From Eledone cirrhosa (lineage: Eukaryota), in contig OZ024764.1 of NCBI GenBank assembly GCA_964016885.1, positions 7,192,001 to 7,256,000 on the forward strand: 64,000 nucleotides of DNA. The letters run 5' to 3'. Shown here piece after piece: positions 1-58,259 of the stretch (its first letter is position 1; each line of letters begins with the position of its first letter). The notes under the pieces were generated by a model. It saw only the letters and a list, made by a program, of their open reading frames with translations, did not search any database and had not been told where the DNA came from. A program made the translations under genes and the position numbers.

Positions 1-173
1 GAAGAGGAAGGAACAGAGAAAAGATTTTGAGAAAGTTTTGATGAAAAATATGTGAATTCTGTCAGCCATTTTGGAGAATAAGAAATATATCTATCCGTGT
101 GTTATTGATGAATGTGAGAAAAAGTACTCAATGCTGAAGTAGAGTTTGAATATTCATTTATTATGACTAAGTG

Positions 174-278
174 GTGAACCTTGTTACTCTGGAGTTTCAC
201 TTACACACTTGCAGGCTCATCAGATAAGACTCTTGTCTGATGATCCTGCAGGTGAAACTCCAGAGTAACAAGGCTCAC
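174..278. ncRNA. Two inverted type-I hammerhead ribozyme motifs (plus 232-272, minus 180-228)
   Basis: Plus strand: cttgt-CTGATGA-tcctgcaggt-GAAAC-TCCAGA-GTA-acaag with a perfect stem I. The minus strand has the same core with a longer stem II. Confidence 0.75.
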
Positions 279-508
279 TACTTGCCAGACTTGATTCATA
301 AGTGGGACCACCCAGTCCCACAATATTCGTGTGGTTGGTGTTAGAAAAGGCATCCAGCAATTGTAAAAATCCCAACCAAAACACAGGTCCTACTATGATC
401 AGGGTACAACGTGGCCAACTGGCCAGACCTACCTCCTAATGGGACCATCTAGTTTTATAGTTCTACTACAAGCAGGGTACGCATGGCCAACTGACCAGAC
501 CCTCTCAT

Positions 509-740
509 AAGAGTGTGGTACCCCTAACATGGCCGTAGTCTAATGACTGAAACCAGTAAATAAATAAAAGAGTGTGGTACCCCTAACATGGCCGTAGTCT
601 AATGACTGAAACCAGTAAATAAATAAAAGAGTGTGGTTCCCCCAACATGGCCGTAGTCTAATGACTGAAACCAGTAAATAAATAAAAGAGTGTGGTACCC
701 CCAACATGGCCGTAGTCTAATGACTGAAACCAGTAAATAA
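509..740. repeat. 59-bp tandem repeat, about 4 copies, resembling a SINE 3' end
   Basis: Unit aagagtgtggtacccctaacatggccgtagtctaatgactgaaaccagtaaataaataa. Confidence 0.9.
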
Positions 741-778
741 TTTTTAAAAAAAGGAAAAGTCCCTGCAGAAAAATTTAC

Positions 779-883
779 CTTGAGTTTTGCTAAGGCAGAT
801 GTTTTACTCCAGTTGTCTAACCAGTCAGTTTCTTCTATAACTTCTTTTGTTGCTTCCAACAGATAAACACCAATGGAATCGGC
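779..883 (-). CDS. M13 peptidase exon (ADSIGVYLLEATKEVIEETDWLDNWSKTSALAKLK)
   Basis: atccag acceptor, AAG|gtaaat donor, phase 0-0; M13 WxDxxTKxxAxxK motif. Confidence 0.9.
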
Positions 884-3800: not shown

Positions 3801-6800
3801 GTGCATGCATGAATCTGAGGTCATTGAGGTTGTCCAAAGTGGTCATATTAGGCCAAAAGTAATTTTCAATAGGGCGTTACTTTCCACCCACCCTGTATAT
3901 ATATATTGTTATATTTAGGGAGGGTCATATTGTTATATTGCCAGAAATAATAATTGTTTCTACTTTAGGCACAAGGCCAGCAATTACCCAGTACATTACT
4001 GGTACTTTATTTTATCAACACCGTAAGGATGAAAGGCAAAGTTAACCTCGGCGGGATTTGAACTCAGACTGTAAAGGGATGTAACTATGCTAGAAAGCAT
4101 GGCATCCAACCCTCTACCGTTACTGCCAATTCACCACCCTAATAAATAATAAAACACGTTCACTGTATATTTTATATCTCTATAGTTAATTTAGCTGGCA
4201 ATCAATGTTTATCATTAGTTGATCAATGGTTAATATATATATATATATATATAGTCTATCAAAGTTCTTTCATCACACACCTGTGACATCATCAGGGGTA
4301 CTATTACGTTTCCTCCCATTGTGTTGTAATGTCTATTCCATTTTTAATTATTTATTTATTCTTGTCTCTGCATGCGTCTGTGTGTGTGTTTTACCCCTTT
4401 AAAAAAACCCACTGTATGAATAAGAAATGTGTTATTTGTGGAATAAATCCACAAATAAACTGTAAAGCTAGAAATGTAGTCTATAGCATAAGATGTACAG
4501 AGGTTACCTGCAGAAACATGACAATGACATACATAGGTGAGACAGCTCACAGCATAGGGGAGAGATTAGACCAACACTGGGGGGAAACTAAAAGGACAAA
4601 AAGACAGTTCGCTACTATACAAACATGCCAGACAAAGACATGATGGTAACATAGACAACATAGAAATTAAAATAATATATAAACATAGAAATGACCCAGC
4701 AGATAGGTAAATCAGAGAGGCCAATGAAATAGAACTTAGAAAGCCAAAGCTAAACAGAAAAAATGAATGGAATAACAACTACCACCATACACAAACAATA
4801 CTGACCTAAGGTAAATATAAATAAATATACACAGGTACAACAACAACCATACATAAACACACAATACTGACCTAAGGTAAATATAAATAAATATACACAG
4901 GTACAACAACAACCATACATAAACACACAATACTGACCTAAGGTAAATATAAATAAATATACACAGGTACAACAGCAACCATACATAAACACACAATACT
5001 GACCTAAGGTAAATATAAATAAATATACACAGGTACAACAACAACCATACATAAACACACAATACTGACCTAAGGTAAATATAAATAAATATACACAGGT
5101 ACAACAACAACCATACATAAACACAATACTGACCTAAGGTAAATATAAATAAATATACACAGGTACAATAACAACCATACATAAACACAATACTGACCTA
5201 AGGTAAATATAAATAAATATACACAGGTACAACAACAACCATACATAAACACAATACTGACCTAAGGTAAATATAAATAAATATACACAGGTACAATAAC
5301 AACCATACATAAACACACAATACTGACCTAAGGTAAATATAAATAAATATACACAGGTACAACAACCATACATAAACACACAATACTGACCTAAGGTAAA
5401 TATAAATAAATATACACAGGTACAATAACAACCATACATAAACACACAATACTGACCTAAGGTAAATATAAATAAATATACACAGGTACAACAACCATAC
5501 ATAAACACACAATACTGACCTAAGGTAAATATAAATATACACAGGTACAATAACAACAACCACACATAAACACACAATACTGACCAAAGGTAAATATAAA
5601 TATACACAGGTACAATAACAACAACCACACATAAACACACAATACTGACCTAAGGTAAATATAAATATACACAGGTACAATAACAACAACCACACATAAA
5701 CACACACTAGTGAGCAAAGATAGAATACAAACACACAGACATGAACACACACACACAAACGCATACACAAACATATATATATTTTTAAAATAAACATATG
5801 AAACAATCACAGGGAATAATTTGTAAAGTGTGTAATTACACATAGCTAGGTAGGTAACTAATTAAAGTTTAACTAGAACTTCAAATATTACCTTTTAAAA
5901 ATGATTAATCTTCCTTGTATAGAGAAATATATTTCACCATTAATCCGTAAAGTCACAGTAGTCAAAATCCCGGATCTTCAGCAAGGGGGGAAGAATCAAC
6001 TATCTGTGTTTACACATCAAATGCAAATCTGCAAATGACCAGTTGCACGTGTTGCATCCCTAAAACTACACACATCGTGTCAACGTCATCCCGGTGGCGT
6101 GAATAGGGTTATCGACAGCTAGAAATAGCAGCCGAGTCCTTTCAATTGAGTTAGCTCTACAATTAAGGGGCTGTGTATATATCCAAAATTTAGTTAAATT
6201 AAGGGAGTCATGTCCGAGACATGCACCATATCCACCGTAGAATAAGCTCAAAGATTCCAATGAATAGATCCGAGCATTTTATATAAACTAGAAATTGATT
6301 GACATATATGGAGGCACATGGCTTAGTGGTTAGAGCATTGGCCTGGCAATCGAAAGGTTGTGAGTTCAATTCTTAGACCGGGTGATGTGTTGTTTCCTTG
6401 AGCAAGACACTTTATTTCACATTGCTCCAGTTTACTCAGCTGTAGAAATGATATGATAGGGACTGGGGTCCCTATCATTCCACTGCAAAGTGGTCGTGGA
6501 GGTGCCACGGCAAAAAAGCACCCAGCACTCACTGTAAATGAGGTTGGTGTTAGGAAGGGCATCCAGCTGTAGAAATCAAGCCAGAATCAGTTGCCGTCCC
6601 ACCCTTGCAAGCAGGGAAAAGCGGGCGTAAAAACGAAATGAATGAAATTGATTGACATATATATATATATTTAAAATAAACACATGAAACACTTTACAAA
6701 TTATCCCTCCCCTGTGATTGCTTCATCATCATCATCATCATCATTTCATTTTAGGTCCGCTTTTTCCCTGCTTGCAAGGGTGGGACGGGAACTGATTCTG

Positions 6801-57190: not shown

Positions 57191-58213
57191 ACGTTAGCGT
57201 CCCAGGGTTTGCAGAGCTAAGGCTTCCTAAAACCGTATTTCTTTGGAGATACGAAATATTTATACATATTGTATAAAGATATGCTTGAAGCGAAATCCTA
57301 TTTCTTTTATATATATATATGTATATATATACATATATATGCACATAAAGTGTTTTGGCAGATCATCCACCGACTTCGTAATATGAAGCCCTCCCCCACA
57401 CCTATCAAGTATGAATCCTGGGTTCCCTTATCTTCAGAAAGGTGCATCCTCACAAGGTGGGAGAATATGTTGCTGACTTCCTAAACCCGATCACAACAGC
57501 ATCTTTGGATGTAGATGAGGTGTATCTGGGAGTGGTGACTAATCTCTCGGAGACTGAGGTCACAAGAGCAGTTAAAGTGCTCAAATGTGGTAAAACTGCT
57601 GGGGAAGATGAAATCTGGCTCGAGATGTTAAAAGCCTTAAATAAAGAAGACCACTTTACAGTGTGGACTGCGCACATTTGGCATGGCTACAGCGGGACCA
57701 CTTTATAGTGAGGTTTGAGAACTTGTGTGGGGTGTTAGTGGGGAAAATGTCTGGTGGATTGTGGATGTAGTTATAGGGGTGGGATGATTACATCAATTAA
57801 GATGTTTGGGAAGGTGTTACATACTAGATATATGCCTCAGCTCGTGGATTTATGAGGGCAGGTCCTCTATAATTGTGCATAGCGCCAGAGGTCACCATCC
57901 TGTGTCTTGCCTTAGCTAGGTGTAATTGTGCAAAGTCAGCTTTCCTTACCTCATCCCAAGTCTTCCTAGACCTGCCCACTCCACGGCTTCTGTCAACCTT
58001 TTTATACATTATTTATTTATGTTCATACACAGAACAAAAGGGATTCAAGGTTTTAAGGCCCAATATTGACCATATCTCCAGATTATAAGAGGGATCAAAT
58101 TTGTGACCTAATCTTCAGGCACTTAGATGTCTATGTTATATAGATAGATTTACATATATGTATATATATATTTATAAAAGTAAAACAAAGAAGCCTTCAA
58201 TACATCAAAAGTC

Positions 58214-58259
58214 TTTATTAGCCAACAATGTTTCGTCCTATTAAGGACTCATCAGGGCA
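58214..58259 (-). ncRNA. Minimal hammerhead ribozyme in a Penelope-type terminus
   Basis: gcc-CTGATGA-GTCC.ttaata.GGAC-GAAAC-att-GTT-ggc, then AATAAA and an end motif also seen at about 16926-16952, then (TA)n. Confidence 0.75.

What the first reader, a model, noticed from the sequence alone, without database searches (positions are those of the whole stretch)
174..278. Back-to-back bidirectional hammerhead pair inside a host-gene intron
Seen: plus-strand cttgt-CTGATGA-(cctgcagg)-GAAAC-TCCAGA-GUA-acaag with a perfect 5-bp stem I. An oppositely oriented copy 3 nt away has a different stem II. A transcript from either strand contains one sense ribozyme and its near-complement. Inference: the hairpin could mask the ribozyme, so that cleavage depends on folding kinetics. 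The minus copy is sense in the M13 pre-mRNA.
Basis: partly seen in the sequence, partly recalled or inferred. Interest (0 to 1): 0.75.

Follow-up and report, generated by a model that had tools for sequence, protein, structure and literature searches.

The report
Mirror-image Penelope retrotransposon stub with hammerheads
Two back-to-back self-cutting-RNA motifs do sit in this gene's intron, but they are the mirror-image end pieces of an old Penelope-type jumping gene, a layout repeated at many other places in this genome, and they likely stay locked in a hairpin rather than regulate the gene.

Summary
In detail: two type I hammerhead motifs lie head to head, 3 nt apart, in a 4,225-nt intron of a minus-strand M13 peptidase gene. 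They are not a gene-specific switch. Each is the 3' end (pLTR) of a decayed Penelope-like element with Hydra-clade motifs. A 21-mer of the motif has 663 exact matches in the genome; 49 of 90 sampled loci carry an inverted partner, and most have their own junction. Inverted, 5'-truncated PLE ends and opposite-strand hammerhead pairs are in print (Cervera 2014; Arkhipova 2013; Craig 2021). The scan also noted this layout before, in this and other genomes. The hairpin is predicted about 58-60 kcal/mol more stable than the ribozyme fold and captures the core before the ribozyme is fully transcribed, so masking is likely constitutive, not kinetic. Cleavage was not assayed. Two residues of interest remain. 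First, 85 of 90 arms end within the hammerhead or at the 5' edge of helix I, which hints at a fixed RNA 5' end. Second, the hairpin is invariant across four paralogous gene copies (empirical p about 0.05).

The parts
92..231 (-). Long arm: 3' end (pLTR plus optional tail) of a Penelope-like element, 5'-truncated at the start of helix I
   Evidence: Window 103-229 aligns at 79% to L179 8925-9052, which is collinear with an endonuclease remnant; tail present in the profile alignment; the outer end near 92 is read by eye
180..228 (-). Minus-strand type I hammerhead motif, core intact, helices I and II damaged; predicted cut after 185; sense in the M13 pre-mRNA
229..231 (.). Head-to-head junction (loop of the hairpin)
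   Evidence: junctions differ among other loci
232..272 (+). Plus-strand type I hammerhead motif, core intact, U10.1-U11.1, helix II shortened by a deletion to an 8-nt palindrome; predicted cut after 267
232..283 (+). Short arm: second, tail-less copy of the same PLE end
1..778 (-). In-window part of the 4,225-nt M13 intron (continues 3,446 nt left of the window)
779..883 (-). Upstream exon of the M13 (neprilysin-like) peptidase gene, 105 nt
   Evidence: downstream M13-type exons about 13, 31 and 36 kb left of the window (motifs recalled)

Best explanation
This is an old insertion of two 3'-end pieces of a Penelope-like retrotransposon (likely Hydra clade), joined head to head in an intron, whose hammerheads are predicted to stay locked in one hairpin and likely do not cut the host RNA. 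Shown: the family, its copy number, the physical link to PLE ORF remnants, the inverted layout at many loci, and the intron position. Inferred mechanism: the element's endonuclease-RT cuts both strands of a TA-rich target. It primes a cDNA from each end at one of two start points in the pLTR (hence a tail often on one arm only). Both cDNAs run about 60-150 nt and stop at or inside the hammerhead, probably at the template's 5' end, and their 3' ends are then joined by microhomology. The hammerhead serves the element's own RNA (likely as a dimer or with protein help), not the host. After insertion the arms decayed.
For: Family: 663 exact 21-mer matches; 181 and 385 matches for two 5'-half 18-mers. 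Layout: 49 of 90 loci inverted, 37 solo, 4 long solo; junctions differ among loci except in one carrier group. Parent: endonuclease remnant, then about 1.5-2.4 kb non-coding, then the arm, on one strand in L179, L198 and L210. An inverted arm adjoins ORF sequence of this family in five loci. Remnants carry KWK, DKT, GSFDG, YRDD, CxCX5C and CxxC..E motifs, close to the Hydra description in PMC8557442 section 11. Arms of one locus share a subfamily in 22 of 23 classifiable pairs (p 1.2e-5). A TA run lies at the arm's outer end in 56 of 90 loci against 17% background (partly circular, as the profile ends in TA). Decay: paired arms differ by 23% in unselected columns (33 loci); both cores are intact in 1 of 8 loci that span both, and that one is this window. 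The hairpin is 58-60 kcal/mol below the ribozyme fold. A spliced product across the intron exists. In print: opposite-strand dual min-HHRs and no monomer cleavage (PMC4209133); head-to-head palindromic junctions and a one-sided tail (PMC3846280; PMC8557442); both strands cut and extended, two RT starts, uncleaved RNA as template, protein-assisted HHR (PMC11167929).
Against: No intact parent ORF was found and no tree was built, so the clade rests on motifs. The tail is on exactly one arm in 27 of 43 pairs (both 4, neither 12), which is not significant against independence (p 0.064). Core columns in partner arms mismatch less than other columns (6.9% vs 11.6%, p 0.009); this could reflect selection in source elements or alignment bias, but it is not what pure decay predicts. 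The hairpin has 0 of 114 variable sites among four paralogous copies against 46 of 783 in the flanks (nominal p 0.0025; empirical 0.05). This copy has only a short TA tract at its left end and none at its right. Cleavage was not measured.
Confidence: 0.9

Rival explanations
1. Same origin, but the second arm arises by self-priming or fold-back of one nucleic-acid strand rather than by two cDNAs primed from both target ends.
For: Arms share subfamily and sometimes private variants. Some junctions sit in natural palindromes: in helix II (L038, L039) and in a 6-nt palindrome upstream of helix I (L300). Self-priming on an antisense template is proposed in PMC3846280.
Against: The two arms usually end at different outer points, and most junctions are asymmetric with small inserts. 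By eye I saw no junction of the form expected from a cDNA fold-back at helix I (not counted by script).
Confidence: 0.25
2. A PLE relic that the M13 gene has kept under selection: a hairpin-masked ribozyme or dsRNA element that tunes pre-mRNA level, splicing or editing.
For: Both cores are intact here but in none of the other 7 loci that span both. The hairpin is invariant among four paralogous copies. It is sense in the pre-mRNA, 550 nt from the 5' splice site. U10.1-U11.1 and 2-bp stem II variants occur in natural hammerheads (PMC3088659 passage).
Against: Of 114-column windows against the most diverged paralog, 5.0% also lack substitutions, and two longer identity runs exist in 8,466 aligned columns, which fits patchy gene conversion. 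The sense copy has damaged helices, and no kinetic window is predicted.
Confidence: 0.06
3. A MITE-like DNA transposon with long terminal inverted repeats that moves as a unit.
For: Palindromic shape and TA flanks. One group of 16 loci shares a single junction and downstream sequence.
Against: Other junctions differ at every locus, arms have variable 5' truncation and unequal outer ends, and long copies run into a PLE 3' region and ORF. The 16-locus group looks like one insertion copied inside a larger repeat.
Confidence: 0.03
4. A non-LTR retrozyme (tandem hammerhead monomers, circular RNA).
For: Type I hammerhead with a weak, near-palindromic helix III.
Against: No head-to-tail hammerhead arrays in the 90 loci; the only multi-arm loci are a double palindrome (L081) and split or stray pieces (L025, L029, L064). 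Copies begin upstream of the core, not at the cut site.
Confidence: 0.02

Closest known systems
Hydra-clade EN+ Penelope-like elements (Craig et al. 2021, PMC8557442; passages and section 11 read)
   Same: C-terminal GIY-YIG endonuclease with CxCX5C linker and CxxC/CxH motifs, DKT motif, hammerhead near the 3' end, (TA)n targets, inverted 5'-truncated copy, one-sided tail
   Different: Here most sampled insertions are 60-150-nt stubs; the non-coding 3' region is long (about 1.5-2.4 kb); the motif reads KWK rather than RWK; no intact copy was found
PLE min-HHRs and dual motifs on opposite strands (Cervera and de la Pena 2014, PMC4209133; parts 1-2 of 4 read)
   Same: Short helix I, long helix II, weak palindromic helix III, widespread stubs, pairs on opposite strands
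   Different: Their pairs are 100-700 bp apart, here 3 nt. G10.1-C11.1 is replaced: C-U 28, U-U 25, C-C 17, G-U 4, G-C 0 of 85 motifs
Adineta vaga Penelope insertions with palindromic head-to-head junctions (PMC3846280; passages)
   Same: Head-to-head inverted pLTRs, palindrome at the junction, optional tail on one pLTR
   Different: Those flank long ORF-bearing copies; hammerheads are not discussed in that paper's main text (0 occurrences)
Conserved intronic hammerheads of RECK and C10orf118 (PMC3088659; passages)
   Same: Hammerhead sense within a host intron
   Different: Those are conserved across mammals (RECK also in birds) and active in vitro; this one is one of hundreds of repeat copies, has an antisense partner and is untested
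Animal non-LTR retrozymes (bioRxiv 10.64898/2026.07.22.740005; part 1 of 5 read)
   Same: Non-coding PLE-derived type I hammerhead repeats
   Different: No tandem monomers here; the stubs are truncated ends of an ORF-bearing family

Membership tests
Type I hammerhead ribozyme | Core CUGANGA, GAAA, A15.1-U16.1, NUH | tested here: met
   Both copies
Type I hammerhead ribozyme | Three helices can form | tested here: inconclusive
   Drawable, but 5.7-6.7 (plus) and 10-13 (minus) kcal/mol above the ensemble as monomers; weak monomers are normal for PLE motifs
Type I hammerhead ribozyme | G10.1-C11.1 pair | tested here: not met
   U-U on plus, G-U on minus; 0 of 85 family motifs have G-C. U-U is a reported natural variant, so this is a strong preference, not an absolute requirement
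Type I hammerhead ribozyme | Match to an Rfam hammerhead model | tested here: not met
Type I hammerhead ribozyme | Self-cleavage | not testable with these tools
   Needs an assay
EN+ Penelope-like element | RT and C-terminal GIY-YIG ORF linked to the pLTR | tested here: met
   Broken remnants in other copies, linked to the same arm; no ORF at this locus
EN+ Penelope-like element | Inverted 5'-truncated copy at the 5' end | tested here: met
   49 of 90 loci; five arm-ORF inversions
EN+ Penelope-like element | Tail on one end only | tested here: inconclusive
   True at this locus and in 27 of 43 pairs; p 0.064
EN+ Penelope-like element | Partial-tandem (direct pLTR) full-length copy | tested here: inconclusive
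   Not seen among the loci fetched; the search was not exhaustive
Hydra clade | DKT, RWK, CxCX5C, CxxC/CxH motifs | tested here: met
   DKT, CxCX5C and CxxC..E found; CxH read by eye; RWK reads KWK
Hydra clade | No CCHH motif in the endonuclease | tested here: inconclusive
   None seen by eye in broken frames
Hydra clade | (TA)n targeting | tested here: met
   56 of 90 vs 17%, partly circular; weak at this locus
Hydra clade | Placement in the RT phylogeny | not tested
   No reference set was fetched; Pfam has no hit for two comparison ORFs
Non-LTR retrozyme | Tandem monomers, each with a hammerhead | tested here: not met
Host-conserved intronic hammerhead (RECK type) | Conservation across species at the orthologous site | not testable with these tools
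   No relatives are held for this genome; within-genome paralogs are borderline

The most novel reading that the evidence does not exclude
The stubs are 'strong-stop' DNAs of a Penelope-like element. RT starts internally in the pLTR, copies about 60-150 nt and runs off a fixed RNA 5' end that lies at the first base of hammerhead helix I, within an initiator-like TTAGTT. Two such cDNAs, primed from both strands of the cut target, join head to head. The junction pile-up would then map the element's transcription start from DNA alone and explain why back-to-back hammerheads are so common. Basis: 85 of 90 arms end between -13 and +21 of the core; of 50 arms that reach -6, 41 stop within the next 8 nt and 9 run on into the upstream region.
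Probability: 0.3. Interest if true: 0.55.

Novelty: new member of a known kind. Interest (0 to 1): 0.2.

Why it matters
As a locus it matters little: it is one decayed stub among hundreds. It is a useful caution, because back-to-back intronic hammerheads in PLE-rich animal genomes are a default insertion product and not evidence of a switch. The family-level pattern has some value. How PLEs make inverted ends, and what their hammerhead does, are open questions (PMC3846280, PMC8557442, PMC11167929). A sharp stop of cDNA at the hammerhead's 5' edge, with the uncut hammerhead copied, gives a concrete prediction for 5'-end mapping and in vitro TPRT.

Tried and rejected
Rfam: no hammerhead hit. An upstream second ribozyme setting the 5' boundary: the long form reads GAAAC-GUU just before the boundary, like half a min-HHR, but by eye there is no CUGANGA partner or usable helices and subfamily B lacks the motif; rejected. 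A 3' splice site as the boundary (as in D. virilis): no shared upstream exon sequence is seen at junctions (by eye); not supported. The tail as the ORF start, as in the anole element: the family's ORF 5' region begins with unrelated sequence; not supported. The intact-looking 729-aa ORF next to L100 and the ORF next to L104 belong to other families with no matching arm of their own; they were used only as tblastn queries. The PF01431 genome search did not list the C25 gene; the gene was placed. Expression: no RNA holder listed; X4 shows no cover over 201-240, which is no evidence either way. A cofold of the plus motif gave a dimer at -25.7 kcal/mol that I did not interpret. The energy used a wrong helix III index and is superseded. 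Sequence look-up in earlier findings returned nothing. One paper search for a described pile-up of junctions at the hammerhead (Penelope, hammerhead, truncation, template switch, inverted) returned 0 papers; one search does not show it is absent from print, and no supplements were read (hammerhead alignments in PMC8557442 file S2 and the PMC4209133 supplements could bear on it). Rows dropped: 11 duplicate or carrier-group loci; 10 of 60 loci. In one search the script's 'long' label looks wrong for L298 and missed for L255, so the count stays 9.

Full report
1. Observation. Both motifs are at the stated places. The plus copy has a 5-bp stem I, an intact core, an 8-nt palindromic stem II, a 3-bp helix III and GUA at 265-267. 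The minus copy has an intact core, one mismatch in stem I, a mismatch and a wobble in stem II, and GUA ending at 185. They are 3 nt apart. Together they form a hairpin of -77.4 kcal/mol (plus) or -70.5 (minus), beyond all 200 shuffles. Rfam does not recognise them. The host gene is an M13 peptidase on the minus strand: exon 779-883 and further exons left of the window. A contig of run X4 skips 4,225 nt with splice-type ends, and run X1 lacks that joint. X4 is not labelled RNA but behaves like it here.

2. It is a repeat family. The 121-nt pair has 837 first-look candidates in the 3.0-Gb genome, 40 scored; many match along the whole palindrome at about 80%. A 21-mer has 663 exact matches, control 0. 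I fetched 90 loci covering the first 93 of the 100 listed matches. They include four duplicated pairs and eight copies of one carrier group, and palindromes have two chances of being sampled, so they are over-represented. With a profile, 49 have an inverted partner, 37 are short solo arms and 4 are long solo arms. Each arm reads helix I, core, helix II, GAAA, helix III, AATAAA, optional tail, then (TA)n. In the window the minus arm keeps the tail to about position 92 and the plus arm stops at about 283.

3. The parent. A minority of copies run further 5'. Following them gives about 1.5-2.4 kb of non-coding sequence and then GIY-YIG remnants on the same strand in L179, L198 and L210. L179 and L210 align in a collinear chain from the endonuclease to the arm, and window 103-229 matches that arm at 79% (output partly cut, I cite only rows seen). 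RT and N-terminal remnants lie in the inverted 5' part of L216. In L231, L235, L243, L246 and L249 an inverted arm adjoins ORF sequence of this family. The motifs (DKT, KWK, GSFDG, YRDD, CxCX5C, CxxC..E) fit the Hydra clade as described by Craig et al.. All copies seen are broken, and I built no tree.

4. How the pairs form. Outside the carrier group, junctions differ from locus to locus, so the palindrome is made at insertion. Paired arms share a subfamily in 22 of 23 classifiable cases (20 of 43 unclassifiable) and are somewhat closer to each other than to other arms (0.229 vs 0.266; 33 loci; p 0.002). The tail is on one arm in 27 of 43 pairs (p 0.064). This is the published PLE layout (PMC8557442; PMC3846280; opposite-strand motif pairs in PMC4209133). 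The anole PLE protein cuts and extends both strands, starts RT at two internal sites, and uses uncleaved RNA; its hammerhead needs protein (PMC11167929, parts 1-2 of 4). Two cDNAs primed from both target ends and joined at their 3' ends is my inference from this; self-priming is the published rival. I noted the two-cDNA idea before looking at earlier scan notes, which say much the same for other families in this genome and for other genomes; they are unchecked AI notes and add no independent support.

5. The fixed boundary. Of 90 arms, 85 end between -13 and +21 of C3 (sampling required the 21-mer at about +22 to +42, and profile ends are fuzzy). Among 50 arms selected for reaching -6, 41 stop within 0-8 further nt and 9 continue. 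The edge coincides with the 5' end of an extended helix I and with the A of TTAGTT, which resembles an initiator (recalled consensus). The D. virilis promoter also lies in the pLTR, with the start 46 nt upstream of an intron (PMC2377424 passages) that ends at helix I. A fixed RNA 5' end is the simplest reading but is untested; RT pausing and trimming at the joint could contribute.

6. Function at this locus. The ribozyme fold is 58-60 kcal/mol above the hairpin on either strand. Because the motifs diverge, the antisense arm is always made first and captures CUGAUGA before GAAA exists (equilibrium prefixes). The pre-mRNA-sense copy is poor even alone. A spliced product exists, which does not exclude partial cleavage. 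Against pure neutrality: both cores are intact here, against none of 7 other spanning loci; core columns vary less in partner arms (p 0.009); and the hairpin is invariant among four paralogs (0 of 114 vs 46 of 783). But 5% of equal windows are also invariant against the most distant paralog and longer identical tracts exist, so gene conversion suffices. I put host function at about 6%.

7. Verdict. This is a real but ordinary feature: a new family member of a known kind. Interest 0.2. The family-wide stop at the hammerhead's 5' edge is the only part worth a specialist's time. Papers: PMC4209133 parts 1-2 of 4; PMC11167929 parts 1-2 of 4 plus passages; PMC8557442 passages and section 11; PMC3846280, PMC2377424 and PMC3088659 passages; bioRxiv 2026.07.22.740005 part 1 of 5; no supplements. 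The repeat landscape looks cephalopod-like (recalled, not tested).

Noticed in passing
L024, L026, L046, L084, L098, L100, L107, L109, L253, L256, L257, L260, L265, L270, L272, L280: One palindrome of this family, with the same junction and private variants, recurs at 16 sampled loci. In most it is followed by a short element and a tandem repeat; in at least six it is followed by ORF1 of an L1/Tx1-like LINE (APE and RT Pfam hits in L189). It is probably one insertion copied inside a larger repeat that the LINE targets; a LINE carrying the palindrome at its 5' end is not excluded.
   Followed up: partly
G000:C25 near 5.44, 7.19, 7.52 and 25.23 Mb: Four copies of the M13 gene region carry the identical hairpin; flank divergence runs from under 1% to about 4%, with patchy identity tracts. 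The nearly identical copy might be an assembly duplicate.
   Followed up: partly
window 4246-4760: A second PLE relic: a GIY-YIG remnant on plus (Pfam E 0.0033) joined to an inverted end with a hammerhead-like core on minus (4295-4257), next to a TA run.
   Followed up: partly
window 58209-58255 minus: Another hammerhead-like motif, with a G10.1-C11.1 pair and a 5-bp helix II, followed by AATAAA and a TA tract.
   Followed up: no
window 509-740: Four tandem 59-nt copies of what I recall as a common SINE tail; each holds CTAATGA..GAAAC but lacks hammerhead helices.
   Followed up: no
L100 521-2707 minus; L104 3226-3783; L181 8620-9240: Long open Hydra-like PLE frames of other families, one of 729 aa, with no Pfam hit for the two tested. 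A related hammerhead with U-U at the base of helix II lies near L104 (read by eye).
   Followed up: partly
L081; L040/L041: Two palindromes of the family in tandem in L081; two copies 1.6 kb apart in converging orientation inside a local inverted duplication in L040/L041.
   Followed up: no
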